From positions 1 to 34,976 of the forward strand of contig JBHLPW010000051.1 in assembly GCA_048939015.1 (NCBI GenBank): DNA of 34,976 bases, in the 5' to 3' direction. Position numbers and translations under genes: made by a program. This document shows, one piece after another, positions 1,842 through 31,796 of this stretch. Position 1 is the stretch's first letter. Each line of letters starts with the position of its first letter. The DNA comes from Promethearchaeota archaeon. Its GTDB lineage: Archaea; Asgardarchaeota; Lokiarchaeia; Sigyniarchaeales; SOKP01. Below the pieces are notes generated by a model that did not search any database, was not told the origin of the DNA, and saw only the letters and a program-made list of their open reading frames with translations.

Positions 1842-3143
1842 ATGGAAGAGCGTAAATTAAATGAAGTTGAATATTTAAATTGGCTAGTAGGTCAGCCATA
1901 CAATGTATCTATGGCGATTACTATTAGGGGAAAATTACAAAAAGAAATAATCCGCAATGCTTTAAATAAAATACAAGAAAAACATCCATTATTACAAGCT
2001 CAGCTGCATGTCGATGAAAATGAGGTTCCATACTTTATTTGGAGTGATATTGGTGTGATTCCAGTAGATTTTATTGCTAGAACCAGTGATGAACTTTATA
2101 AGAAAATTGTTGAAGAGGAATTTACTACTCCATTTGATACAGGAAAAAGTTGCCCACTCCCTTTAATGAGAGTTAAAATATTGTTTTCAGAGGATTTATT
2201 CGATTTAATTTTAACTTTGCAACATGTTATTGCTGATGGAATGTCAATGGTTTTTCTTTTCATGGATATTCTTAGTTTTATTATAGACCCCAATCAAAGA
2301 GTTAAACCATTAGATGTAGTTAAAAATTTAGAGAATGTTTTACCTAATAATTATCAAAAAAAAATCCCAAAAACTCAACGTAAGTTCAAAAGGACTTTTT
2401 GGTTTTTAAGAAGAATGATAAAAATTTATAGATTTAAGAATAAATTCAGGAAGAAAGGGTTAAAACAAAAGGTCTTAATATTTGATAATTTTGAAAGTAA
2501 ACAATTGATAACTTATTCTTGGATTTTAACAAAAGATCAATCCGAAAAAATAATTAAAAAGGGTAAGGAGTTCAAAATAACAGTACATAGCATAATTTGT
2601 TCATTATTCCTCTCAGATTTTCCAATTATTAATAATCCAGTTAATTTAAGAAATAGATTAGCATATGATGTTGGAAGATCAATTGGATGTTATGCTGGGG
2701 GTTTAGTAATTAATAAAAAATATAACGATAAGAAGACTTTTTGGCAAAATGCACAAGACTATCATAAAAAATTAAAAAAGGGTCTTCAAGACAAAAGTGT
2801 GTTCAGCATTTTTAAGCTTTTTTCAAGATCTGTTAAACGTAAAGCTTATGAAAAGTTTACACCAATCTTTTTAGAGTTAGCAAGTAGAAATCAACCTTTT
2901 GGAGTTACCAACCTAGGATCTTTAGATAGATTCAATATTTTACTAGCGTCGAAAAATTTTGTTATAGAAAATTTTTATGGTGGAGTTTCAGGAACGTTTG
3001 ATGCACTAGTTATTACAATATTTACAATTGAAAAGAAAATTCATTTTCATTTTCATTACTATAAACCTCCTCATACTACGGATGAAATTGAAAATTATGT
3101 CTCTAAGGCAATGAATAGATTAGAAGAAGCATTAAACGCATAA
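1842..3143 (+). CDS. Condensation-domain/alcohol acetyltransferase (PapA5/Atf-like) CoA-dependent acyltransferase
   Basis: KHPLL, PFD, catalytic HxxxDG (QHVIADGMS), PVNLR, TNLG; ATG at 1842 (MEERKLNEVE) preferred over 1803. Confidence 0.8.
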   Translation: MEERKLNEVEYLNWLVGQPYNVSMAITIRGKLQKEIIRNALNKIQEKHPLLQAQLHVDENEVPYFIWSDIGVIPVDFIARTSDELYKKIVEEEFTTPFDTGKSCPLPLMRVKILFSEDLFDLILTLQHVIADGMSMVFLFMDILSFIIDPNQRVKPLDVVKNLENVLPNNYQKKIPKTQRKFKRTFWFLRRMIKIYRFKNKFRKKGLKQKVLIFDNFESKQLITYSWILTKDQSEKIIKKGKEFKITVHSIICSLFLSDFPIINNPVNLRNRLAYDVGRSIGCYAGGLVINKKYNDKKTFWQNAQDYHKKLKKGLQDKSVFSIFKLFSRSVKRKAYEKFTPIFLELASRNQPFGVTNLGSLDRFNILLASKNFVIENFYGGVSGTFDALVITIFTIEKKIHFHFHYYKPPHTTDEIENYVSKAMNRLEEALNA

Positions 3144-3169
3144 AAAAACCATACTTTATAAGAAATAAA

Positions 3170-3274
3170 GATCCAAAAATAATAATTATTATTGCCCTTG
3201 TTTCTGTTGTTGGAGGTGTCGCTATAATAGCGGGGGTCGATATTTTTATGAAAAGAAGAGTAGCACCAGAATAA
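3170..3274 (+). pseudogene. Start-less remnant encoding a C-terminal membrane anchor (DPKIIIIIALVSVVGGVAIIAGVDIFMKRRVAPE*)
   Basis: Frame open 3119-3274 with no ATG/GTG/TTG before the helix; hydrophobic helix, basic tail, stop, then a T-tract. Confidence 0.55.
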
Positions 3275-3389
3275 TTTAAATAATAAATCCTTTCTTTTTT
3301 TAGAGAGATTTACTGGAATACATATCTTTCAAAAACTTTTAAATATTTTTGAAAATAATTTTTCAATATTAGAAATTCAAGTGAATCAT

Positions 3390-3830
3390 ATGGAAAATCT
3401 AAAAATTGGACATTTTTTAATGAATTTTATGGGATTTTATATTTTAGCTATAAGTATATTGTGGATATTTGTAACCGAGATCATGTTTGTGAGTGATTTT
3501 CTTTGGTATACCGGCGAATCTTATGCTAGTTATTTAGCCACTAATCCTACATACGCGGAGATTTATATAATAACGAAAAAGTTAATCGGATTTGTATTAT
3601 TAGCTAATGGGATACTGGTTCTTTTTATAAACAATAAGAGTTATAAAATTGGAGAAAAGTGGGCATGGTATGCTCTTTTGATTTCAGGTTCTATCACTTG
3701 GGGATTGTTCATAATTTACAAGATTTATATTGGTTATTATGGCGGAAGTATGATTACTTTTATAGTTGGATTAGGATTGTTAGTCACAGGATTAGCTTTT
3801 CCAGTAAAAGAAATTTTGGGTAAAAAATAA
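3390..3830 (+). CDS. Small 4-TM hypothetical membrane protein
   Basis: Four hydrophobic helices with GEKWAWY loop; start either GTG 3381 or ATG 3390. Confidence 0.7.
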   Translation: MENLKIGHFLMNFMGFYILAISILWIFVTEIMFVSDFLWYTGESYASYLATNPTYAEIYIITKKLIGFVLLANGILVLFINNKSYKIGEKWAWYALLISGSITWGLFIIYKIYIGYYGGSMITFIVGLGLLVTGLAFPVKEILGKK

Positions 3831-3940
3831 TATAAATTTCTTCTTTTTATTTTTAGAAATTTTTAATAATAAATTCTATATAAGAATTCTCTATAATAAT
3901 CAAAATAATAATTGAAATAGATTCCTATTGGTAATTAAAA

Positions 3941-18229: not shown

Positions 18230-19909
18230 ATGGAACTCCCAGATTATATTAAAAACCGAATTTGGAAAGAATATTTACCTGAAGGAATAACATTAGATAT
18301 CGAAATTCCTGAAAATAAGTCTTTAATTGATGTATTTGAAACAGGTGTGAAAGAGTATGCCGATAAAGTAGCCATGGATTACTTCGGAAGGGAATTCACA
18401 TTTAGAGAAATGGATTTTTTAACTCGAAGATTTGCTAATGCCCTCTTAAAATTGGGAATAAAAAAAGGAAATGTGGTTGCCCTTTGGTTGCCAAATAGCC
18501 CACATTTTAGCTTTTGTTATTTCGCTACTATGAGTCTTGGAGCTACATTGACTGCAATCAGTCCACTATTTGTAGCAAGGGAAATGGCATATCAAATAAA
18601 AGATTCGGGTGCTAAATATCTTATAATGCTTGATGGATTCTTTCAAGAGTTTAAAAAAGTTGAAGATCAACTAATCTTAGAAAAAGTAATATTAGTGAAT
18701 GTTGAGGGAAAAGTTCCAGATGTACCTGAGACAAACAAATTAATTCATTACAACACGTTGATGGATTCAAATCCTGAACCTCTTACAGATTTCAAGGTTG
18801 AGATTAATCCAAAAGAAGATATTGCGATTATCCAGTATACAGGAGGTACAACGGGTGACCCAAAAGGTGCTGAGCTTACTCATTACAATGCTCTATCAAA
18901 TCTTATGCAAATTGGACAAGTCTCAGATTATATGAAAGAATATTATATTAAGAAAGATCTCGTGGGGCTTTCTATACTCCCTTGGTATCATGTATATGGT
19001 CAAATATGTGAACTTTTACAAGGTCCACGTACTGGAGGTAAAGCGATTATTTTTCCAACATTTGATATCCCTCGAATAATTGAAACTATCAAGAAAAAAG
19101 ATGCTAATTTCATACTTGGAGTGCCAACTATGTTTATTAATATCCTAGGATCGTCTTTAAGTAAAGATGTTGATTTTTCAAATCTTAAGTATTGTAATGT
19201 AGGTGCATCACCAATGCCAGTTGAAATTGGAAATGAATGGGAAGCGAAGACTGGGTTTCCTTTAGGAGAGGGGTATGGTTTAAGTGAATCAACTGTATGT
19301 ATTTCAAGTCTACCACCATGGAGCAAGAAAAAACTAGGAAGTTGTGGACTACCTGTTGCGAGTACTCTTATTGGGATTATTGATGAAAACCTGAATTTTT
19401 TGCCAATAGGGGAATCTGGAGAATTGGTTGCCTCGGGACCTCAGATTATGTTAGGATATCACAACCGACCAGAAGAGAATAAAAAGGTATTCTTTGAAGC
19501 AGGGGGATATAGATGGCTAAGAACAGGTGATTATGCAAAATTGGATGAAGAAGGTTATATCTTTTTAATCGATAGAGTCAAAGATATGATTAAATATAAA
19601 GGTCATAGTGTTTATCCAAGAGAAATTGAGGAAGTTTTATATGAACATCCTGCGATTCAGGAATGTACTGTTGTTGGTATAAAAGATCCAGATCGAGGTG
19701 AAAATATTATGGCACATATCATTCTCAAGAAAGAATATCAAGGAAAAATCAGTGAGAAAGAAATAATCGATTGGTCAAAGGAACAAATGGCTGCCTATAA
19801 ATATCCAAGAATAATAAAATTTGTAGATTCTCTTCCAAAGAGTGCGGTAGGAAAAGTTTTAAGGCGAGTTATTAGAGATAAGGAAATTAATAAAGCTGAA
19901 AAGAAATAA
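18230..19909 (+). CDS. fadD: Long-chain fatty acid--CoA ligase
   Basis: QYTGGTTGDPKG, EGYGLSE, WLRTGD, DRVKDMI, LPKSAVGK. Confidence 0.92.
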   Translation: MELPDYIKNRIWKEYLPEGITLDIEIPENKSLIDVFETGVKEYADKVAMDYFGREFTFREMDFLTRRFANALLKLGIKKGNVVALWLPNSPHFSFCYFATMSLGATLTAISPLFVAREMAYQIKDSGAKYLIMLDGFFQEFKKVEDQLILEKVILVNVEGKVPDVPETNKLIHYNTLMDSNPEPLTDFKVEINPKEDIAIIQYTGGTTGDPKGAELTHYNALSNLMQIGQVSDYMKEYYIKKDLVGLSILPWYHVYGQICELLQGPRTGGKAIIFPTFDIPRIIETIKKKDANFILGVPTMFINILGSSLSKDVDFSNLKYCNVGASPMPVEIGNEWEAKTGFPLGEGYGLSESTVCISSLPPWSKKKLGSCGLPVASTLIGIIDENLNFLPIGESGELVASGPQIMLGYHNRPEENKKVFFEAGGYRWLRTGDYAKLDEEGYIFLIDRVKDMIKYKGHSVYPREIEEVLYEHPAIQECTVVGIKDPDRGENIMAHIILKKEYQGKISEKEIIDWSKEQMAAYKYPRIIKFVDSLPKSAVGKVLRRVIRDKEINKAEKK

Positions 19910-19988
19910 TTAGGATTATTTTTTTATTAGACCATTTCTTTTTTTTCAATAAATATCTGGATTTATTATCTCGGTCAATAGTTAAATA

Positions 19989-22349
19989 ATGAATAAACGA
20001 ATTAAGAAACTAAGAAAACAAAGTCGTGAAGCTATTCCGTATCTTTCCTTGGAACGTGCGTTATTAATAACAGAATTCTATGAGACTGGAACAGCCCATA
20101 TTTATACTCCTCCAGTTGCTAGAGCAAAAGCATTTAAGTATATCTTAGAAAATAAGAGAATTTGCATTAATGATGATGAGTTAATAGTTGGCGAACGAGG
20201 TCCAGAACCAAAAGCAACGCCTACATATCCAGAGGTATGTTGCCATAGTCTACATGATTTAGATGTTCTACACACACGCGATAAAATTTCTTTTAAGGTA
20301 ACTGAAGATACAAGACAAAAGACAGCAAATAAAATTATTCCCTTTTGGAAAGGCAGATCTATTCGTGATAAAATCTTCTCAAAAGTAGATGAAACATGGA
20401 TTAATGCATATGAAGCTGGTATTTTCACAGAGTTTATGGAACAGAGAGCGCCTGGGCATACTGTTGCTGGAAAGAACATATGGAATAAAGGTTTTTTAGG
20501 ATTTAAAAAAAATATTACTGAAAGCATAGAACAGTTAGATTTTTACAATGATCCTGAAGCTTATAATAAAAGAGAACAATTAATTGCCATGAATATTGCT
20601 GCTGATGCAATTATTGCTTTTGCTGAACGCCACGCTCAAGAGGCTAAATATTTAGCCAATATGGAGTTAGATCCTAAAAGAAAAGGTGAATTAGATAAAA
20701 TATCTGAGATATGTTCCCGTGTTCCTGCTCACGCCCCTAAGACTTTTTGGGAAGCACTCCAACACTATTGGTTCATTCATTTAGGCGTCATAACTGAATA
20801 TAATACATGGGACTCATTCAATCCAGGACGTTTAGACCAACACCTTTTTCCCTTCTTTAAAAATGATATAGAAAAAGGAATATTATCTAAGGATGAAGCA
20901 TATGAATTACTTCAAGCTTTTTGGGTGAAATTTAATAATCAACCCGCACCACCAAAGGTAGGTGTTACTGCTGAAGAAAGTAATACTTATACCGATTTTT
21001 GTAATATTAACTTAGGTGGTCTTGAAGATGATGGTTCCAATGCAGTTAATGAAATGTCCTATATACTCTTAGATGTTATTCAAGAAATGAGGATTTTACA
21101 ACCGAGTAGTAACGTTCAAATTAGCGTGAAAACACCTGATAGATTTTTAAAAAGAGCTCTTGAAATAGTTAAAACTGGCTTTGGACAACCATCAGTTTTC
21201 AATTGTGATGCTATAATTCAGGAATTGACCAGACAGGGTAAATCGATAATAGATGCCAGAAACGGTGGAGCAAGTGGTTGTGTTGAATCTGGTGCTTTTG
21301 GAAAAGAAGCATATATACTAACGGGATATTTTAATCTTGTGAAAATTTTGGAAGTAACTCTTCATAATGGTTTTGATCCTCTAACTAAGAAACAGATTGG
21401 GTTAAAGACGGGTGATCCTATCACATTTAAATTATTCGATGATTTTTTAGAAGCTTATAGGAAACAAGTGAATCATTTTGTAGATATAAAAATTAAAGGA
21501 AATCAAATAATTGAACAAATCTGGTCGCAAAATCCAGCACCTTTTTTATCAATATTAATTGATGATTGTATTAAAAAGGGAAAGGATTATAATAGCGGAG
21601 GAGCAAAATACAACACATCTTATATACAAATTGTGGGAATGGGTAGCATAACCGATTGTTTAACTTCTATAAAATATAATATATATGACAAAAAAATTAT
21701 CTCTATGGAAGATCTTCTGAAAGCGTTAGATAATAATTTTAAAGGTTATGATGTTTTACATCAGAAATTAGTTTATAAAACTCCTAAATATGGGAATGAT
21801 GACAATTATGCTGATTCCATTACGACCCAAGTTTTTAATATAGCTTATAATGCTATTGATAATCGTCCTAATACAAAAGGTGGTGTGCATCGTATTAATC
21901 TACTTCCTACTACTGTGCACATATACTTTGGTCAAGTAACTGGAGCTACACCAGATGGACGCATAGCTTTTAGTCCCTTATCTGAAGGCATCTCCCCAGT
22001 TCAGGGAATGGATATTAATGGCCCAACTGCAGTTATTAAATCTGCTGGGAAAATTGATCATTTAAGAACTGGTGGAACTCTATTAAATCAAAAATTCACC
22101 CCTCAATATTTTTCCGATGAAGAGAGGATTGATAACCTAGCTCACTTAATTAGAACATATTTCGAAATGAATGGTCATCATATACAATTTAATGTAGTTT
22201 CAGCAGATACCTTACGAGCTGCACAATCAAATCCAGAAAAATATAGAGATCTAATTGTACGAGTTGCCGGATATAGCGATTATTTTGTGAATTTAGGAAA
22301 GGAATTACAAGAAGAAATTATTAGAAGAACTGAGCATATTGCAATATAG
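19989..22349 (+). CDS. hypD: Glycyl radical enzyme, trans-4-hydroxy-L-proline dehydratase type
   Basis: RVAGYS glycyl loop, SGCVE cysteine loop; HypD-like motifs FTEFMEQRAPGH, NNQPAPPKVG..EES.TYTDF, GKEAYILTGY, LPTT.H.YFG. Confidence 0.85.
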   Translation: MNKRIKKLRKQSREAIPYLSLERALLITEFYETGTAHIYTPPVARAKAFKYILENKRICINDDELIVGERGPEPKATPTYPEVCCHSLHDLDVLHTRDKISFKVTEDTRQKTANKIIPFWKGRSIRDKIFSKVDETWINAYEAGIFTEFMEQRAPGHTVAGKNIWNKGFLGFKKNITESIEQLDFYNDPEAYNKREQLIAMNIAADAIIAFAERHAQEAKYLANMELDPKRKGELDKISEICSRVPAHAPKTFWEALQHYWFIHLGVITEYNTWDSFNPGRLDQHLFPFFKNDIEKGILSKDEAYELLQAFWVKFNNQPAPPKVGVTAEESNTYTDFCNINLGGLEDDGSNAVNEMSYILLDVIQEMRILQPSSNVQISVKTPDRFLKRALEIVKTGFGQPSVFNCDAIIQELTRQGKSIIDARNGGASGCVESGAFGKEAYILTGYFNLVKILEVTLHNGFDPLTKKQIGLKTGDPITFKLFDDFLEAYRKQVNHFVDIKIKGNQIIEQIWSQNPAPFLSILIDDCIKKGKDYNSGGAKYNTSYIQIVGMGSITDCLTSIKYNIYDKKIISMEDLLKALDNNFKGYDVLHQKLVYKTPKYGNDDNYADSITTQVFNIAYNAIDNRPNTKGGVHRINLLPTTVHIYFGQVTGATPDGRIAFSPLSEGISPVQGMDINGPTAVIKSAGKIDHLRTGGTLLNQKFTPQYFSDEERIDNLAHLIRTYFEMNGHHIQFNVVSADTLRAAQSNPEKYRDLIVRVAGYSDYFVNLGKELQEEIIRRTEHIAI

Positions 22350-22458
22350 CAATTCTTTTTCATATATTTTAAGCAATTAGTTCTATTTTCAATTGTGCAA
22401 ATTATTAAAATGCCAATTTTAAGGATTAGAAACTTTTTTCTTTTATCCTACATATATG

Positions 22459-22531
22459 TGTACATATTCAGTACATAGATTTATAAATGATAATTTCTTT
22501 TTTATTCTTATATGTACATGATCAGTACATA
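22459..22531 (+). promoter_or_regulatory. Promoter with TATA box (TTTATAAA 22480-22487) flanked by two 19-bp direct repeats TGTACATnnTCAGTACATA (22459-22477, 22513-22531); candidate operators
   Basis: 17/19 identical copies 54 bp apart; each has two GTACAT half-sites 11 bp apart; RBS GAGGTGA at 22543-22549. Confidence 0.7.
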
Positions 22532-22556
22532 TATAAAAAAAAGAGGTGATAAGATA

Positions 22557-23330
22557 ATGAGTAAAGAGAATTATGAGGAAATGATTAAGATTATAGTTAT
22601 TGGGGCTGCAGGAGTGGGTAAAACCGCATTAATTGAAAGTTTTTCCGATAAATCTCTATACAAAGATACAGCTCCAAAAACTGGTGTGAATTTATTTATT
22701 AAGAAAGTAAATATTGAGGGTAATGACTATAAACTTCAGTTTTGGGATATTGTTGATGATGACAAATTTGGATCACTTCAAACAATATACTACACAGGGG
22801 CCTCTGTTGTTCTTTATATATTTGATTTATCTAGACCCGAAACTTTTGATTATTTTCAAACACGTTTTAAGGATATTTGGACACAGGTTAAACAAGACAA
22901 GTGCCCTGTACTTGTAATTGGAAATAGACTTGATTTAGTCGAAAACCCAGAAATTATTGATAGAGAAAAATATCGTAATTTTGTGAAAGATGAAGGTTTA
23001 ATAGGTTATATTGAATTGAACTCAACAAACAATATTGATAGTCTAATAAACCAACTCCCTATTATTATTCAAAAAGCTTTAAAAAAGAGTATTCAAGTCA
23101 AATTTCTAGTCACTAGTAAAGAACTTGAAGAAATTAAAAGATTTGCTAAACGTTCTCATCAAACACAATCGGAATTTATTCGTACCGCAATATGGGAAAA
23201 AATTAAATCGATAAATTCACCCTCAAAAACTGAGAACTCATTAAAAGAAGAACTTCTAAAAGAAATATTAAGGTTAGAAGAATTGAAAAAAATTCGAGAA
23301 TTATTAGAAAGACAAGAAAAATTAAAGTAG
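22557..23330 (+). CDS. Rab-like small GTPase domain fused to a C-terminal ribbon-helix-helix (CopG/Arc/MetJ-like) domain and short coiled coil
   Basis: G1 GAAGVGKT, LQFWD, YYTGA, GNRLD; RHH pattern IQVKFLVTSKELEEIKRFAKRSHQTQSEFIRTAIWEKI at 23091-23204; RBS supports ATG 22557. Confidence 0.82.
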   Translation: MSKENYEEMIKIIVIGAAGVGKTALIESFSDKSLYKDTAPKTGVNLFIKKVNIEGNDYKLQFWDIVDDDKFGSLQTIYYTGASVVLYIFDLSRPETFDYFQTRFKDIWTQVKQDKCPVLVIGNRLDLVENPEIIDREKYRNFVKDEGLIGYIELNSTNNIDSLINQLPIIIQKALKKSIQVKFLVTSKELEEIKRFAKRSHQTQSEFIRTAIWEKIKSINSPSKTENSLKEELLKEILRLEELKKIRELLERQEKLK

Positions 23331-23356
23331 CCGAAAAGAATTTTATTTTTCAAGAA

Positions 23357-23372
23357 TTTTTCTTTTTTTTTT
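23357..23372 (+). terminator. Oligo-T terminator after the GTPase-RHH gene
   Basis: TTTTTCTTTTTTTTTT about 27 nt after the stop. Confidence 0.5.
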
Positions 23373-23477
23373 CTATCTTTTTCTATTTAATAATATATAT
23401 ATTCATAGAGTTTATTATGGAAATGTACAATCGGAATAACATAATTCAACAACACTATTAAGAATATAAGAAGATAA

Positions 23478-26371: not shown

Positions 26372-28759
26372 ATGAGAAAAACTAAAACAAAAGTATTTAT
26401 TCTACTATTACTTTTTCCGATGATTTTAAGCCTAGGATCGCTTACTACAATTGTAAAGGGTGAATCAAATATCCCAGAGCCAAGTCCTAACAACAGTTGG
26501 CATTGGGGTGTTAATATCGGTGATGTGTTTATGTTTGAATCGGAGCTAATTACTACCGATCCTACTACTCACGATGTAATAAACATGTATAGGAATATTG
26601 ATATATACAATATAACTTCTATTGTCAATCAAACAAGTGATCTTTATGGTTTTTATCCGTTTCAGCAAGTTTCAAAAGTTATAATCGATGTATTATGGGA
26701 AAGTTCTGTAGGATCATTATCCTTATCTCCTTTAACTGGTGCTCCTTTATGTATATTCGGGTATAATGAAACACTTAAGAAAGAGATTTACCAAATTGGA
26801 GCGGGAGGTATTACACCTTTTATATATCCCATCAATGACACTGTGTTAGACGTTGCGTCAATGGCGTCAGTATATAACGAAACTTTCTTAACTCCTATTA
26901 TCAATTCAATGGGTGTTTTCAATAAATTTGACTCTTTCAGCTATGATGTTGGTAAAACAGAAATTAAGTTCGAAAATACAACACATGGTTATTACTTTAG
27001 AGCCAGTTATTATCCGAATAATGGTACTTTAAAAGATATGGACGCTTATTACTTAATGAAATCGTATGATTGGATTGTTTTAAATGTGTCAGGAAAAAGA
27101 GTATTTAATCATGATGTTACTGATGAAATCGAATGGGGTGTAAATATTGGAGATGAATTATTTTACTATGTAAATCAAACTGGGTATGACACATATCTTT
27201 CAAGATTAAAAGTACTAGGATTTAATAAGGCTGTCTATTGGAGTAGTAATTGGACCATGTATCCTATGGATTGGCCAATGGTATTTGAGGAAGTATTAGT
27301 TGAAATTTCAGTTTGGAATGGTACAGGGTGGGATGTAGGACCGACTATCCCCTTAACAGCTGCGAATAATTTTTATCCAATGTGCTTACCACTAATGGAA
27401 ATGGGTGGTCAATCTGGGATAATTTTACCTACAAGTAGCACAGTCGAGGATTTTTTATTTATATTTAATAACTATACTGCTGATCTTACCCATTGGTTTC
27501 CTTTTGATACTGTCCATTACGATGTTTCTGGTAATATTCTGAATTTCACAATGTCACAATCGGGTAATGGTCAAGTAGCAGTGGGTGTATATAATCTCGG
27601 TACTGGATTAGTTGAATTACAATATGCAACTTATTTAGGAGAAATCCAAATGTGGTTCGAGTTAGCTGATCCATTAGTGGAATGGAACGTGGATATAGGA
27701 GATACTCTTTTCTTTAAGGAAAATTTTAATGAAGATATGCAAGAAGTTCGATATACTATAACATCTATTGAATACAATTTTGTAGATGTCACAACTATAG
27801 GCTTTCCTATTCCAACTGGTCAACCAAAATATCAATTTTTCACAGAACTATACGGTAATTTTTCTGTCTGGATGAAGGATACTGAAACATGGTATGATGC
27901 GGGTACAGCTTTAATTGCTGCTGCGAATGAATATTGGCCTATTTCCCCATACTCTATGATTGGGAGTATGCCGCTCTTAATGCCAGAAGGAACGGTTGTG
28001 AATGATTTACAATATTTGTTCAATGTCTTGTCAGTATGGTATGATGATATAAGCTATAGTCCCGGTCATGTTATCATGAGTAATACCACAGCATCTTCAG
28101 AATTCCATTTCTATTTTGATGAAACAACAGGCAGGATGACATTTCTAGGGGGAGATAATTATGCTGCGCATGAATGGTGGTATATATCAGCCTACCCTGA
28201 ATTCATTCAAAACCTTAATACAGGCACCAATCATTTCGTGCTTTCAGATAATTTTAATTTGGAACCCACAGTAACAGTTGAGATTGAAGCTGGAGCAACG
28301 GCTGCTGCCCCAGATTTCATATACGCTTTATTACCGTATAATCCACTTGGTATATCATTGCCTAATGGAACTGTTCTATTTTATATGGAACACAAGCTAA
28401 CTGGACACTCTGTAATAGTAGGAAACATCACGATGACGATACAATTTCCATCTTCAATTCAACTTAGTGAAAACTATATTTATCTTTACTCATTTAATAT
28501 GAGTGGGACAGGGGAATGGGATCTAGCACCTCCAGAATTCTATCAATACTCCGTAACGTATGATCTTGTCAATAATCGAATGACGTTTGAAATTGAAGTT
28601 ACTGGTCCTTATATGTTTTTATCTGCGGTATCCTATGAAGCAATACCCGAAGATGGCGGAGGTGAAACACCTCCAATACCAGGCTATGATTTATTCTTCT
28701 TAGCAATAGCAATGATAACTGTATCGGCAATAGTAGTTAAAAAAATACGGAAAAAATAA
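26372..28759 (+). CDS. Secreted, membrane-anchored surface glycoprotein with Loki-CTERM-type sorting tail (paralog A)
   Basis: Signal peptide, three ~190-210 aa repeats beginning W(G/N)V.IGD, many NxS/T sequons, C-terminal PPIPGYDL-TM-KKIRKK. Confidence 0.85.
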   Translation: MRKTKTKVFILLLLFPMILSLGSLTTIVKGESNIPEPSPNNSWHWGVNIGDVFMFESELITTDPTTHDVINMYRNIDIYNITSIVNQTSDLYGFYPFQQVSKVIIDVLWESSVGSLSLSPLTGAPLCIFGYNETLKKEIYQIGAGGITPFIYPINDTVLDVASMASVYNETFLTPIINSMGVFNKFDSFSYDVGKTEIKFENTTHGYYFRASYYPNNGTLKDMDAYYLMKSYDWIVLNVSGKRVFNHDVTDEIEWGVNIGDELFYYVNQTGYDTYLSRLKVLGFNKAVYWSSNWTMYPMDWPMVFEEVLVEISVWNGTGWDVGPTIPLTAANNFYPMCLPLMEMGGQSGIILPTSSTVEDFLFIFNNYTADLTHWFPFDTVHYDVSGNILNFTMSQSGNGQVAVGVYNLGTGLVELQYATYLGEIQMWFELADPLVEWNVDIGDTLFFKENFNEDMQEVRYTITSIEYNFVDVTTIGFPIPTGQPKYQFFTELYGNFSVWMKDTETWYDAGTALIAAANEYWPISPYSMIGSMPLLMPEGTVVNDLQYLFNVLSVWYDDISYSPGHVIMSNTTASSEFHFYFDETTGRMTFLGGDNYAAHEWWYISAYPEFIQNLNTGTNHFVLSDNFNLEPTVTVEIEAGATAAAPDFIYALLPYNPLGISLPNGTVLFYMEHKLTGHSVIVGNITMTIQFPSSIQLSENYIYLYSFNMSGTGEWDLAPPEFYQYSVTYDLVNNRMTFEIEVTGPYMFLSAVSYEAIPEDGGGETPPIPGYDLFFLAIAMITVSAIVVKKIRKK

Positions 28760-29126: not shown

Positions 29127-31796
29127 ATGAGAAAAACTAAATCAAAAATGTTAATTTTACTACTACTATTTCCGATGATTTTAAGCTTAGGATTGTTTGC
29201 TACTGATATAAAAGGAGGATCAACGATCCCGGAGCCAAGTCCTGACAATAGTTGGCATTGGGGTGTGGATGCAGGTGATATGATAATAATGGAGACGGAG
29301 CTTATCGGGACCAATTTTGGCACTGGTGGAGTAACAATGGTGAGAAATTTCGATATATATAACATAACTTCCATCATAAATGAGACTGGTGATGCAATGA
29401 GTTTACATCCAAATCAAGAATTTTCAAAAGTTATGGTAGATCAATTATGGGAAGATTCAGTAGGAGTTTTATCGCCTTCAATAAACGTTAATATGCCTAT
29501 TGCAAGTTTTGGATATAATGATACTCTTTCAAAAGAGTTTTACCAACCTATGCCTTACAGTCTTGCCCCTATGATACTGCCTATAAACGATACTGTTGTA
29601 GATGTTTCCTTAATGGCTTCAATACTTAATGAAACGTATGTAAGTCCTATGGAAGGTTTCTTCAATAAATTCGACGATTTCATTGTTGATATAGGTAAAA
29701 CAGAATTTACATTCATAAATAGTACTGATGGATACTATTTTAGAGCCAGTTATTACCCAAATAATGGAACGATAAAAGATATGGATGCATATTATTTAAT
29801 TAATATGGGAGCCTGGGTCTCGTTTAATATAACATCAAAAAGAGTATTTGATTTTGATGGTACTGATGAAGTCGTATGGGGTGTTAGTCCTGGAGAAACG
29901 TATTATTATTACGTGAATCAAACCGGATATGGGACATATCTAACAAGATTAGAAATAGAAGGATTTAATAAAGCAGTTTATTGGAGTAAGAATTGGACAG
30001 CATTTAATATTCTCTGGCCAATGGTATTTGAAGAAGTGTTAATTTCAATGTCAATGTGGAATGGAACAGGATGGCAGTCGGTAATGACAAGCTACCCTTT
30101 ATCAGCTGCGAATAATTTTTACCCAATGTGTTACCCGATTTTGGAAATGTTAACAGCATCAGGACAACTTGGATTTCTTATTCCGACAAGTGCGACATTC
30201 GATGATTTTATGTTTATGGTTAATAACCACACAGCCGACCTTACTACATGGTTTCCTTTTGATACAGTTTATTATGAAATTACCGGCAATATTTTGAATA
30301 TGACATTGATGCAATCTGGAAATGGTCAGGAGGCTCATGCTATATTCAATTTTAATACTGGATTTGCAGAATTACAATCCGTATATTATTTGGGAGAATT
30401 ATTTATATGGTTTGAGAAAGCTGATCAATTAGTGGAATGGGGTGTTGGTATCGGAGATTATCTTTACTTGACGCAAAATTTTGGTGATAGCTTAACTAAC
30501 AAACGAGCCATTATAACATCTATTAATTATGCTTTTTACGATGTAACTACATTGGGCGTTTCAATACCATCAGGGCAGCCTAAATTTCAGTTTTTCACAG
30601 AAATTCATGCTGAATTTGCTCAATGGTTGCCAGCCACTGAAGAGTGGTATACTTATGGTACGAGTATACTTTCTGCTGCGAATGAATATTGGCCATTTGC
30701 TCCTTATTTAATGGGGACCTCTCCGCCACTTTTAATGCCAAAAGGAACAACTACAACAGATTTACAATATTGGTCCGATTCGATGGCATCTATGTATGAT
30801 AGTATAACTTATAATCCTGGTCATATTATCTTTAGAAATACCACAGCAAATAAAGAACTGAACATGATTTTTAACGAAACAACGGGAATATTTAAATATT
30901 TTGGTGGATATTACTATATGGGCGATTGGGTGTATATGTCAATGTACCAAGAATTCATTCAAAACTTGAACACTGGAACAAACAATTTCGTACTTTTAGA
31001 TAATTATGATATGGATTCAACAGTAACGGTTAATATTGATGTCCAAGTTGGGAGCACCACACCAGATTTCATCTATGCCTTATTACCCTATAATCCGATT
31101 GGAATATCATTGCCTAATGGAACTGCATTACTCTACTTGGATCATAAAATAACTAATTATACTGTAATAGATGGAAACGTTACTATGACTGTTCAGTTCC
31201 CATCTTCAATTCACTTTAGTATAGATACTATCTATTTTTGGGTTTGGAACGTGAGTAGTACATCCCAATGGATTTTACCAACTCAAACTATAATCTATAA
31301 TTACGGATCAAATTCAATAACTATAGAGTTTCCCATAACAGAACCCTATTATGAGTTATATGCTGTCTCAGTTGAATATGGCCCACCTAGTAGTTCCACA
31401 TTGAGTTCAGATGCGGGAGTTCCTACTGACGATGATGGAGATTTCACTCTTACATGGGACGCTGCTACTGGAGCTGTGAGTTACTCAGTATATGAATACT
31501 CAAAGTTCATCACAGAAATAAACGGTTCTTTAACATCATTAGCTACTGACATTACGAGTCTCTCACACTCATTGACAGGATATACTAACGGAACATATTA
31601 CTTTATTGTAGTCGCCCATAATAGTGCTGGTGATACGCTCACTAATTGTATTTCAGTTGAAGTTGCAATTCCTCCAGAACCACCTACTGATGGCGGTGGA
31701 ACACCCCCAATACCAGGTTATGATTTATTCTTCTTAGCATTAGCAATGATTACTGTATCTACGATTGCAGTTAAAAAGGTACGAAAAAAAAAATAA
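29127..31796 (+). CDS. Surface glycoprotein paralog B with an extra FN3/Ig-like module and Loki-CTERM-type tail
   Basis: Collinear with paralog A (IPEPSP.NSWHWGV, YYFRASYYPNNGT, AANNFYPMC, AANEYWP); extra ~95 aa module FTLTW..A.SYSVY..GTYYFIVVAHN..G at ~31380-31670. Confidence 0.85.
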   Translation: MRKTKSKMLILLLLFPMILSLGLFATDIKGGSTIPEPSPDNSWHWGVDAGDMIIMETELIGTNFGTGGVTMVRNFDIYNITSIINETGDAMSLHPNQEFSKVMVDQLWEDSVGVLSPSINVNMPIASFGYNDTLSKEFYQPMPYSLAPMILPINDTVVDVSLMASILNETYVSPMEGFFNKFDDFIVDIGKTEFTFINSTDGYYFRASYYPNNGTIKDMDAYYLINMGAWVSFNITSKRVFDFDGTDEVVWGVSPGETYYYYVNQTGYGTYLTRLEIEGFNKAVYWSKNWTAFNILWPMVFEEVLISMSMWNGTGWQSVMTSYPLSAANNFYPMCYPILEMLTASGQLGFLIPTSATFDDFMFMVNNHTADLTTWFPFDTVYYEITGNILNMTLMQSGNGQEAHAIFNFNTGFAELQSVYYLGELFIWFEKADQLVEWGVGIGDYLYLTQNFGDSLTNKRAIITSINYAFYDVTTLGVSIPSGQPKFQFFTEIHAEFAQWLPATEEWYTYGTSILSAANEYWPFAPYLMGTSPPLLMPKGTTTTDLQYWSDSMASMYDSITYNPGHIIFRNTTANKELNMIFNETTGIFKYFGGYYYMGDWVYMSMYQEFIQNLNTGTNNFVLLDNYDMDSTVTVNIDVQVGSTTPDFIYALLPYNPIGISLPNGTALLYLDHKITNYTVIDGNVTMTVQFPSSIHFSIDTIYFWVWNVSSTSQWILPTQTIIYNYGSNSITIEFPITEPYYELYAVSVEYGPPSSSTLSSDAGVPTDDDGDFTLTWDAATGAVSYSVYEYSKFITEINGSLTSLATDITSLSHSLTGYTNGTYYFIVVAHNSAGDTLTNCISVEVAIPPEPPTDGGGTPPIPGYDLFFLALAMITVSTIAVKKVRKKK

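What the first reader, a model, noticed from the sequence alone, without database searches (positions are those of the whole stretch)
22459..23330. Small GTPase fused to a ribbon-helix-helix DNA-binding domain: candidate nucleotide-sensing transcription factor
Seen in sequence: from the RBS-supported ATG (22557), residues ~1-175 form a Rab-like G domain. It is followed by an RHH pattern (alternating beta strand QVKFLV, helix, T-Q-S-E-F-I-R-x-A-I helix) and an E/L/K-rich coiled coil. Established: RHH proteins (CopG, Arc, MetJ, NikR) are dimeric repressors that bind short tandem sites and often autoregulate, whereas Ras-superfamily GTPases are normally switches without DNA-binding domains. Inference: a eukaryote-signature GTPase has been recruited as the sensor of a one-component prokaryotic regulator. 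I know of no characterised example of this architecture.
Basis: partly seen in the sequence, partly recalled or inferred. Interest (0 to 1): 0.88.

Follow-up and report, generated by a model that had tools for sequence, protein, structure and literature searches.

The report
Rab-like domain fused to self-repressing DNA binder
A Loki-type Asgard archaeon encodes a Ras/Rab-like domain, without the usual GTP-switch residues, fused to a ribbon-helix-helix DNA-binding domain whose likely binding sites bracket the TATA box of its own promoter, making a rare and readily testable direct link between a Ras-type protein and transcription.

Summary
ORF 22557-23330 (257 aa) is a Rab-like G domain (Pfam Ras 3.5e-26; Foldseek Rab11/Rab35) fused to a ribbon-helix-helix (RHH) domain. 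The RHH scores above the Pfam NikA-like cut-off, its Foldseek top 50 are all RHH proteins, and the homodimer model scores 0.45 against a best control of 0.00.

The fusion is not an assembly artefact. About 60 full-length relatives exist, but all lie in one GTDB family of Asgard archaea.

New here:
- Two GTAC-N7-GTAC boxes flank the TATA box in every orthologous promoter examined. A matrix built only from other genomes finds these two sites and nothing comparable in the 4.86-Mb genome.
- The same RHH plus operator cassette occurs at the same chromosomal slot with a leucine-rich-repeat domain in place of the G domain, and also stand-alone.
- The G domain keeps the P-loop and NKxD motifs but lacks the switch-I Thr and the DxxG Gly/Gln in about 95% of members.

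Best reading: a self-repressing RHH protein whose N-terminal domain is an exchangeable input or partner-binding module. A classical GTP/GDP switch is less likely.

I found no paper on this architecture. This scan had already noted the same family in seven other genomes. Nothing here is shown biochemically.

The parts
22457..22477 (+). Operator box 1. Two GTAC cores lie 11 bp apart (core 22460-22477), directly 5' of the TATA box and over the expected BRE position.
   Evidence: Column identity is 0.96 across 16 orthologous promoters. It scores 28.8 bits with a matrix built from other genomes only.
22480..22487 (+). TATA-box-like element (TTTATAAA) of the gene's promoter.
   Evidence: It sits 20 nt after the start of box 1 in 22 of 22 loci. 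Column identity is 0.87. Its promoter function is inferred from archaeal promoter architecture, not measured.
22511..22531 (+). Operator box 2. It has the same GTAC-N7-GTAC layout, 54 bp after box 1, and covers the position where the transcription start is expected (about 25 nt after the TATA box).
   Evidence: Column identity is 0.91. At 32.4 bits it is the best site in the 4.86-Mb genome.
22541..22548 (+). Shine-Dalgarno-like sequence (AGAGGTGA), 8 nt before the ATG.
   Evidence: Read directly from the sequence. It is conserved as GAGGTG in most orthologues.
22557..23330 (+). Coding sequence of the 257-aa G-domain-RHH fusion protein (P0001).
   Evidence: Orthologues are 56-88% identical over the full length. 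dN/dS is 0.18-0.38.
22557..23066 (+). Rab-like G domain (residues 1-170). G1 (GAAGVGKT) and G4 (NRLD) are kept. The switch-I Thr is replaced by Lys, and G3 reads D-I-V-D-D instead of D-x-x-G-Q.
23082..23216 (+). Ribbon-helix-helix domain (residues 176-220): strand QVKFLV, helix A 187-199, helix B 204-219.
   Evidence: The strand is identical in 57 of 59 family members.
23226..23324 (+). C-terminal amphipathic helix (residues about 224-256) with conserved Leu/Ile/Arg positions. Its role is unknown; it may bridge dimers.
   Evidence: In the dimer model only residue 243 of this helix touches the partner chain.
23341..23390 (+). T-rich tract after the stop codon, a likely archaeal oligo-T terminator. 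This suggests a monocistronic unit.
   Evidence: Read directly from the sequence. The function is inferred. The downstream CheR gene is absent from several orthologous loci.

Best explanation
The gene encodes a self-repressing RHH DNA-binding protein that carries a Rab-like domain as an exchangeable N-terminal module.

Proposed mechanism:
- The RHH domain dimerises through an antiparallel two-stranded ribbon centred on Lys182.
- The invariant Gln180 and Lys182 side chains read the palindromic GTAC core. This step is inferred.
- Two dimers sit one helical turn apart on each GTAC-N7-GTAC box.
- One box abuts the TATA box over the BRE position, and the other covers the expected transcription start. 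Occupancy should therefore block TBP/TFB and RNA polymerase and shut off the gene's own transcription.

No other comparable site exists in the genome. The circuit therefore looks like a homeostat for the protein's own level rather than a regulator of a regulon.

The N-terminal domain (Rab-like here, LRR or absent in sister genomes) most likely binds a cellular partner, or perhaps a nucleotide, that titrates the protein off DNA or stabilises it there. Because the gamma-phosphate-sensing Thr and Gly are lost, a classical GTP/GDP spring-loaded switch is unlikely. The kept P-loop and NKxD motifs suggest that nucleotide may still be bound, as in RGK-type or GTPase-deficient Ras proteins.

Shown by computation: domain identities, the dimer-type model, operator conservation and uniqueness, and the domain swap. 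Inferred: DNA binding itself, repression rather than activation, and the role of the G domain.
For: - Domains.
- RHH-type homodimer model: ipSAE 0.45 in three runs against a best control of 0.00. Partner pLDDT is at least 72, and the runs agree in at least 65% of contacts. This mark was reached by 20 of 30 solved homodimers and by 1 of 23 proteins solved as single chains. Contacts 180-184, 182-182, 208-208, 211-211 and 215-215 are as in RHH dimers. RHH dimers are solved structures, so the pass may partly reflect likeness to them.
- Operators: box 1, the TATA box and box 2 have the same layout in 22 of 22 orthologous promoters, down to 37% protein identity. They stand out as islands of 0.91-0.96 column identity in flanks of 0.57-0.73, at a synonymous divergence of about 0.6.
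- Uniqueness: a matrix built from other genomes scores the two window sites 32.4 and 28.8 bits, and the next best site in 4.86 Mb scores 16.8. In five other genomes, one of them a single 3.3-Mb contig, the loose pattern occurs at control frequency and is paired only at the gene's own promoter.
- The operator travels with the RHH. LRR-RHH genes carry a GTAC-N7-GTAC box directly 5' of their TATA box, including one at an unrelated locus. Stand-alone RHH genes carry the boxes too. A stand-alone relative in another GTDB family, with a Q-I-K strand, has five GTAC cores at an exact 11-nt period. Four RHH relatives without the Q-x-K strand have none.
- In L024 the boxes flank a TATA box about 950 nt upstream, ahead of an inserted dehydrogenase gene.
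- Both domains are under purifying selection: dN/dS is 0.23 for the G domain and 0.18 for the RHH.
Against: - No DNA binding, transcription start or expression has been measured. No RNA data set was available.
- The profile of the RHH module finds no solved RHH by sequence, and individual Foldseek E-values are weak.
- A transcription factor with only its own promoter as target is unusual. Weaker or single-core sites elsewhere would have been missed by the matrix, and the assembly is about 95% complete in 125 contigs.
- 19 of 53 genomes of the same genus lack the module, some of them 99-100% complete, so its function is dispensable.
- Strong conservation of the P-loop (54 of 59) and of a family-specific switch-II sequence leaves room for real nucleotide control.
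Confidence: 0.62

Rival explanations
1. One reading: a true guanine-nucleotide-sensing transcription factor. GTP- and GDP-bound states of the Rab-like domain change the oligomeric state or operator affinity of the RHH, coupling transcription to the cellular GTP/GDP ratio or to a GEF/GAP pathway.
For: G1 is kept in 54 of 59 family members and NKxD in about 46 of 59. The G domain is under purifying selection, with dN/dS 0.23. The switch-II segment is conserved in its own family-specific form (K70, F71, G72). The genome encodes about 40 other small GTPases, so regulators may exist.
Against: The switch-I Thr is present in only 3 of 59 members and the DxxG Gly in 2 of 59. None has the catalytic Gln. 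Some members lose the P-loop Ser/Thr or the NKxD motif. The domain is replaced at the same locus by a nucleotide-free LRR domain while the RHH and operators are retained.
Confidence: 0.22
2. The protein activates its own promoter, or has a dual role, rather than repressing it. For example, it could recruit TBP/TFB from box 1, or wrap the promoter between boxes that lie five helical turns apart.
For: Box 1 lies upstream of the TATA box, where some archaeal activators bind. The two boxes are in helical phase, 49-54 bp apart.
Against: Box 1 abuts the TATA box with only 2 nt between them, over the BRE position. Box 2 covers the expected start site. In characterised archaeal systems these are repressor positions (established knowledge, not tested here). 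Positive autoregulation with no other target has no obvious use.
Confidence: 0.1
3. The protein is not a transcription factor. The RHH could be a centromere-binding or relaxosome-type accessory (ParG/omega/NikA-like) that marks a unique chromosomal site, with the G domain acting in DNA segregation or transfer.
For: The best Pfam match is NikA-like. The site is unique in the genome, as centromere-like sites are. RHH centromere-binding proteins also bind repeats upstream of their own genes (established knowledge).
Against: There is no relaxase, ParA-type ATPase or mobile-element gene nearby. Synteny with metabolic genes (AMP-binding enzyme, glycyl-radical enzyme, CheR, steroid reductase, HAD) is conserved on chromosomal contigs. 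Only four half-sites are present, placed precisely around the TATA box in every lineage.
Confidence: 0.04
4. It is an antitoxin-like module: an RHH antitoxin fused to, or paired with, a toxic or regulated partner and autoregulating a toxin-antitoxin operon.
For: Weak NCBIfam similarity to the RelB antitoxin (E 0.003, far below the cut-off). Structural matches include the AtaR, TacA and ParD-type antitoxins. Tight autoregulation is typical of such systems.
Against: No toxin-like gene is adjacent. The downstream gene is CheR and is often absent. A T-rich terminator follows the stop codon. There is a single chromosomal copy in a conserved metabolic neighbourhood.
Confidence: 0.03

Closest known systems
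Arc/Mnt (phage P22) and CopG (plasmid pMV158) autoregulatory RHH repressors
   Same: The beta-alpha-alpha fold dimerises through an antiparallel ribbon. Structural matches have TM about 0.8 and rmsd 1.0-1.3 A. Operators are made of short subsites about one helical turn apart that overlap the gene's own promoter. The predicted logic is a dimer of dimers.
   Different: Those are 45-53-residue stand-alone proteins of bacterial phages and plasmids. This one is chromosomal and archaeal, and it carries a 170-residue Rab-like domain and a 35-residue tail helix. Its operators bracket an archaeal TATA box. No sequence-level similarity was detectable.
RHH regulators with accessory domains: PutA (RHH plus enzyme), NikR (RHH plus nickel-binding domain), MetJ, and RHH antitoxins (AtaR, TacA, ParD)
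   Same: An RHH is joined to a second domain that couples DNA occupancy to a ligand or partner. The PutA RHH is among the best structural matches (2rbf, TM 0.94). PutA and the antitoxins chiefly control their own operon.
   Different: In every characterised case the accessory domain is C-terminal to the RHH and is never of the Ras superfamily. Here the RHH is C-terminal, and the partner domain is Rab-like, or LRR in sister genomes.
Switch-degenerate Ras-superfamily proteins (RGK family Gem/Rad/Rem; Rnd, RhoH; pseudoGTPases such as CENP-M)
   Same: The G fold keeps the P-loop and NKxD motifs but has a non-canonical G3 and lacks the switch-I Thr. This predicts weak or absent GTP hydrolysis and no classical conformational switch.
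   Different: Those are eukaryotic and act on channels, the cytoskeleton or kinetochores, with no DNA-binding domain. The resemblance rests on my own knowledge of those families and was not tested here.
Asgard small GTPase architectures described so far (Rab-, Arf- and Rag-like; fusions to longin or roadblock domains)
   Same: The G domain belongs to the expanded Asgard Ras-superfamily repertoire. Public records name the protein 'Rab family GTPase' or 'GTP-binding protein'.
   Different: The surveys I could read list longin/roadblock fusions and operons with DENN or LAMTOR-like genes, and no DNA-binding fusion (PMC10933270; bioRxiv 2020.10.19.343400; bioRxiv 2024.02.28.582541).
ROCO proteins (LRR-Roc-COR)
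   Same: The family combines the same two eukaryote-like domain types, Ras/Roc-like and LRR.
   Different: Here the two domains are mutually exclusive alternatives in front of one RHH, not joined in one chain. No COR domain is present.
Archaeal RHH regulators CdrS/aCcr1 and ORF56 of Sulfolobus plasmid pRN1
   Same: These are small archaeal RHH transcription regulators. ORF56 is the top structural match (3ft7). The NCBIfam aCcr1 match is weak (E 6e-4, 19.7 bits against a cut-off of 60).
   Different: Those are stand-alone proteins controlling cell division genes or plasmid copy number. The aCcr1 membership score is far below its cut-off.

Membership tests
Ras superfamily small GTPase (Pfam PF00071) | G-domain fold and profile match | tested here: met
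   Pfam Ras scores 92 bits against a cut-off of 21.6. Rab12 matches at 8.5e-22. Foldseek matches Rab11/35/2/8 at about E 1e-12.
Ras superfamily small GTPase (Pfam PF00071) | G1 P-loop GxxxxGK[ST] | tested here: met
   The window protein has GAAGVGKT at residues 16-23. The motif is kept in 54 of 59 family members.
Ras superfamily small GTPase (Pfam PF00071) | G2 switch-I Thr that contacts Mg2+ and the gamma-phosphate | tested here: not met
   Lys41 occupies the position that aligns with the Rab Thr. A Thr is at that position in only 3 of 59 members.
Ras superfamily small GTPase (Pfam PF00071) | G3 DxxG(Q) of switch II | tested here: not met
   D-I-V-D-D aligns with D-T-A-G-Q. The Gly is present in 2 of 59 members and the Gln in none.
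Ras superfamily small GTPase (Pfam PF00071) | G4 NKxD guanine specificity motif | tested here: met
   The window protein has NRLD at residues 123-126, with Asn and Asp kept and Lys replaced by Arg. NKxD is present in about 46 of 59 members and variants in the rest.
Ras superfamily small GTPase (Pfam PF00071) | Guanine nucleotide binding and hydrolysis | not testable with these tools
   This needs biochemistry: nucleotide content of purified protein, mant-GTP binding and a GTPase assay.
Rab family proper (as named in public records) | C-terminal prenylatable Cys motif for membrane attachment | tested here: not met
   The C-terminus is the RHH plus tail helix and ends in Lys. The last 140 residues contain no Cys.
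Ribbon-helix-helix superfamily | Profile match to an RHH family | tested here: met
   PF21983 NikA-like scores 34.2 bits against a cut-off of 27 for residues 170-257. RHH_1 scores 20.0 against 20.5, and DUF6290 21.5 against 27.
Ribbon-helix-helix superfamily | Beta-alpha-alpha fold | tested here: met
   The AF2 model has pLDDT 79. All 50 top Foldseek PDB hits are RHH proteins, with TM to target 0.75-0.94 and rmsd about 1 A. Individual E-values are only 0.1-0.6.
Ribbon-helix-helix superfamily | Obligate dimer with an intermolecular antiparallel ribbon | tested here: met
   The two-copy model scores 0.45 against a best control of 0.00. Strand contacts are 180-184 and 182-182, and helix B contacts are 208-208 and 211-211. 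This is a model only, and likeness to solved RHH dimers may contribute to the score.
Ribbon-helix-helix superfamily | Sequence-specific DNA binding to short repeated subsites | tested here: inconclusive
   There is no binding assay. Comparative evidence is strong: conserved GTAC cores at an 11-bp period accompany the Q-x-K strand in all architectures and are absent from relatives with other strands.
NikA/MobA relaxosome accessory proteins (the Pfam family that matches) | Encoded next to a relaxase and oriT on a mobilisable element | tested here: not met
   The neighbours are an AMP-binding enzyme, a glycyl-radical enzyme, CheR, a steroid reductase and a HAD hydrolase, in conserved chromosomal synteny.
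Type II antitoxin (RelB/ParD/AtaR type) | Adjacent co-transcribed toxin gene | tested here: not met
   No toxin-like neighbour is present. A T-rich terminator follows the stop codon, and the downstream gene varies between loci.

The most novel reading that the evidence does not exclude
The Rab-like domain still binds guanine nucleotide, or a GEF/GAP-like or effector partner, through its family-specific switch II. That state would set occupancy of the GTAC operators. This would be the first Ras-superfamily protein acting directly as a sequence-specific transcription factor. It would belong to a modular Asgard system in which eukaryote-type signalling domains (Ras-like, LRR) are plugged into a prokaryotic DNA-binding and operator cassette.
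Probability: 0.3. Interest if true: 0.85.

Novelty: new variant of a known kind. Interest (0 to 1): 0.7.

Why it matters
Ras-superfamily proteins are known as membrane and cytoskeleton switches that act on transcription only through cascades. A natural protein that joins a Ras-type fold directly to a DNA-reading domain would be a new way of wiring such a domain.

It is also unusually testable. A 257-residue soluble protein and a defined 100-bp target allow gel-shift and footprinting experiments with and without nucleotides.

The in-situ exchange of the Rab-like domain for an LRR domain on the same RHH and operator cassette shows how Asgard archaea recombine eukaryote-like signalling domains with prokaryotic regulators.

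Three things limit its reach. The family is restricted to one GTDB family. It is absent from a third of genomes in its own genus. Its switch residues are degenerate, so it probably says little about the ancestry of eukaryotic GTPase signalling.

Tried and rejected
- Expression and start-site evidence: no RNA holder was listed. The five runs holding the stretch are sediment-metagenome DNA.
- A sequence profile of the RHH module against PDB chains found only chance coiled-coil matches at E above 0.3. The RHH assignment therefore rests on Pfam and on folds.
- Rfam found no RNA family in the window. The bacterial-type promoter and terminator scan was uninformative for an archaeon.
- Regulon search: both the matrix and the loose pattern find no second paired site in this genome or in five relatives.
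- 'Spread across Asgard phyla' was suggested by the NCBI record names (Hod-, Hermod-, Thor-, Odinarchaeota). I rejected it: all 45 positive genomes of 400 sampled in the phylum fall in one GTDB family, plus one in a sister family.
- 'Stand-alone RHH is ancestral and the G and LRR domains were added later' could not be supported. The 85-column RHH tree has an unresolved backbone and no reliable root. It shows only that the architecture changed several times (9 changes against a minimum of 4), with the LRR forms nested among G-domain forms.
- Misassembly or a lost stop codon is rejected by the number of independent contigs and by purifying selection on both domains.
- Literature: five full-text searches and three papers read gave no description of a Ras-RHH fusion. 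Subscription journals are not covered.
Full report
**1. What is there**

The + strand ORF 22512-23330 contains a well-supported start at ATG 22557. A GAGGTG ribosome-binding site sits 8 nt upstream, and the N-terminus MSKE... is conserved in orthologues, whereas the longer reading is not. The product (P0001, 257 aa) has two parts.

Residues 11-159 match Pfam Ras (3.5e-26), Roc and Arf and solved Rab proteins (Rab12 8.5e-22, Rab2B 1.2e-21). The AlphaFold2 model, built on 24 relatives (pLDDT 71), matches Rab11, Rab35, Rab2 and Rab8 structures at about E 1e-12.

Residues 176-243 match the Pfam NikA-like RHH family above its curated cut-off: 34.2 bits against 27 for residues 170-257. RHH_1 and DUF6290 fall just below theirs.

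**2. The C-terminal domain is an RHH**

A model of residues 172-257 (pLDDT 79) has an extended N-terminal segment, helices at 187-199 and 204-220, and a long tail helix. All 50 best Foldseek matches in the PDB are RHH proteins: ORF56 of pRN1, AtaR, CopG, Arc, TacA, PutA, AmrZ and NikA. TM to target reaches 0.94 and rmsd is about 1 A. Each E-value is only 0.1-0.6 because the domain is about 45 residues long.

Folding two copies gave ipSAE 0.45, 0.46 and 0.42 against a best control of 0.00. Partner pLDDT was at least 72, and the runs agreed in at least 65% of contacts. That mark was reached by 20 of 30 solved homodimers and by 1 of 23 proteins solved as single chains. The interface is the RHH one: an antiparallel ribbon symmetric about Lys182 (180-184, 181-183, 182-182) plus helix B packing (208-208, 211-211, 215-215). 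RHH dimers are solved structures, so this pass shows likeness to them; it does not prove binding. A sequence profile of the module finds no solved RHH.

**3. The G domain is not a canonical switch**

Alignment with Rab12 and Rab2B puts Lys41 at the position of the switch-I Thr, and D-I-V-D-D where Rabs have D-T-A-G-Q. Motif counts in 59 family members:

| Motif | Kept in |
|---|---|
| P-loop GxxGVGK[ST] | 54 of 59 (five lose the Ser/Thr) |
| NKxD | about 46 of 59 |
| Switch-I Thr | 3 of 59 |
| DxxG Gly | 2 of 59 |
| Catalytic Gln | 0 of 59 |

The domain is nevertheless constrained. dN/dS is 0.23, against 0.18 for the RHH and 0.38 for the tail, at dS about 0.6. Its switch-II segment has its own invariant residues, W63, K70 and G72. 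There is no C-terminal Cys for prenylation. The fold is therefore Rab-like and may still hold nucleotide, but the residues that drive the classical GTP/GDP conformational change are gone.

**4. Operators**

Upstream of the start lie two copies of an 18-nt pattern at 22460 and 22514. Chance predicts 0.02 matches in the window. Each copy holds two GTAC cores 11 bp apart. Box 1 ends 2 nt before a TATA-like element (22480-22487). Box 2 begins about 24 nt after that element, where an archaeal transcription start is expected.

In 22 of 22 orthologous loci with enough upstream sequence, the layout is the same: box 1, the TATA box 20 nt after the start of box 1, and box 2 49-54 nt after box 1. This holds down to 37% protein identity. 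In a 16-sequence alignment, column identity is 0.96 for box 1, 0.87 for the TATA element and 0.91 for box 2, against 0.57-0.73 in the flanks.

The one apparent exception is L024. There the boxes flank a TATA box about 950 nt upstream, ahead of an inserted dehydrogenase gene.

**5. The site is unique**

A weight matrix built only from the 42 boxes of other genomes scores the window boxes 32.4 and 28.8 bits. The next best site in the 4.86-Mb assembly scores 16.8. GTAC-N7-GTAC as such is not enriched: it occurs 12 times, within the range of other spacings. In five further genomes, one of them a single 3.3-Mb contig, the loose pattern occurs at control frequency and is paired only at the gene's own promoter. 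The gene is single-copy, among about 40 small-GTPase paralogues.

**6. The cassette is modular**

The RHH module, at 48-63% identity, also ends 417-460-residue LRR proteins. In 6 of 7 genomes fetched from the genome set, and on two further contigs, the LRR-RHH gene occupies the same slot: after the glycyl-radical enzyme gene and before CheR or the steroid reductase gene. These genes carry GTAC-N7-GTAC boxes at their TATA box. One copy lies at an unrelated locus and keeps both boxes with a different spacer.

Stand-alone forms of 130-179 aa and long forms of 317-356 aa (G domain, linker, RHH) exist and share a linker motif that the window protein lacks. A stand-alone relative in a different GTDB family, with strand Q-I-K, has five GTAC cores at an exact 11-nt period. 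Four RHH relatives without Q-x-K have none. The operator therefore co-varies with the RHH strand, not with the N-terminal domain or the locus.

Only Ras-like and LRR partners appear among 5.8 billion proteins. Genomes carry one form or the other. An RHH tree shows several changes of architecture, but its backbone and root are unresolved.

**7. Distribution**

Record names suggested many Asgard phyla. In a sample of 400 genomes of the phylum, however, the module is found in 43 of 134 genomes of the window's own GTDB family (34 of 53 of its genus), in one genome of a sister family, and in none of the 265 genomes of the other families sampled. The neighbouring genes are 70-90% identical across the loci, which fits a narrow lineage. 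A third of genomes in the same genus lack the module.

**8. Mechanism proposed**

RHH dimers read each GTAC palindrome. Two dimers bind each box, as Arc does on its operator. Occupancy of the BRE-proximal box and of the start-site box blocks pre-initiation complex assembly, which would give negative autoregulation.

No regulon is detectable, and the N-terminal domain is interchangeable with a protein-binding LRR. The simplest reading is therefore a self-limiting circuit in which the N-terminal module engages a partner, or a nucleotide, that shifts the protein on or off DNA. This resembles PutA, BirA-type bifunctional repressors and RHH antitoxins.

Which residues contact which bases, the sign of regulation and the input signal are all inferences.

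**9. Novelty**

RHH autoregulators and RHH proteins with accessory domains are well known. So are Asgard small GTPases, including fusions to longin and roadblock domains (PMC10933270; bioRxiv 2020.10.19.343400). I found no description of a Ras-superfamily domain fused to an RHH. Public records name these proteins only as Rab or GTP-binding or LRR proteins.

Earlier notes of this scan record the same family in seven other genomes. One follow-up report reached a similar reading. I re-derived the operator, uniqueness and switch-loss results here. New in this report are the LRR swap at the same locus, the strand-operator co-variation, the restricted GTDB distribution and the selection estimates.

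Noticed in passing
window 22418-22445: A second moderately conserved element (TTTTAAGG-TTAG-AG followed by a T run; column identity 0.70 against 0.57 around it) lies about 12 nt upstream of box 1 in most orthologous loci. It could be the terminator of the upstream glycyl-radical enzyme gene or another binding site. It is unexplained.
   Followed up: partly
P0118 (from; source unknown): Another small GTPase fused to a DNA-binding domain: Ras (1.2e-32) plus an ArsR-type winged helix (HTH_5, 25.7 bits against a cut-off of 22). Here G3 keeps its Gly. GTPase fusions to DNA-binding domains may be a wider theme.
   Followed up: partly
P0079: A G domain of the same degenerate subfamily (46% identity) carries a C-terminal TPR repeat instead of the RHH.
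   Followed up: partly
L055 (G130:C156), about 112-160 nt into the over-long ORF call: Five GTAC cores at an exact 11-nt period lie upstream of a stand-alone RHH gene (strand Q-I-K) in a different GTDB family. It is a longer array of the same operator type.
   Followed up: partly
L024 3000-3940: A short-chain dehydrogenase gene sits between the operator-bearing promoter and the G-RHH gene. It appears split into two ORFs (3112-3738 and 3769-3939).
   Followed up: partly
L001-L026 record titles compared: NCBI names for these MAGs (Hod-, Hermod-, Thor-, Odinarchaeota, and even 'Thermoplasmatales' for L001, whose locus looks identical to L002 in upstream sequence and match statistics) disagree with GTDB, which places all carriers in one family. 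Taxon labels in the records are unreliable.
   Followed up: partly
own genome G000:C76:74247-74378: A distant RHH relative (43% identity over 46 residues, strand V-H-I-A-F) is the only other hit to the module in this genome. Its relatives (L060 type) have no GTAC boxes.
   Followed up: partly
window 26372-28759 and 29127-31796: The 795-aa ORF has no Pfam match. It and the neighbouring 889-aa ORF (not scanned against Pfam) hit the same stretch of the related loci at 32-40% identity, so they appear to be paralogues. Their function is unknown.
   Followed up: no
whole genome G000: GTAC occurs 7320 times in 4.86 Mb. That is roughly half of what base composition alone predicts by my own rough arithmetic. 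It could reflect restriction avoidance or TA depletion.
   Followed up: no
window 18230-22349 and related loci: An AMP-binding (acyl-CoA-ligase-like) gene and a PFL-like glycyl-radical enzyme gene always precede the RHH-cassette slot. No activating-enzyme gene was looked for.
   Followed up: no
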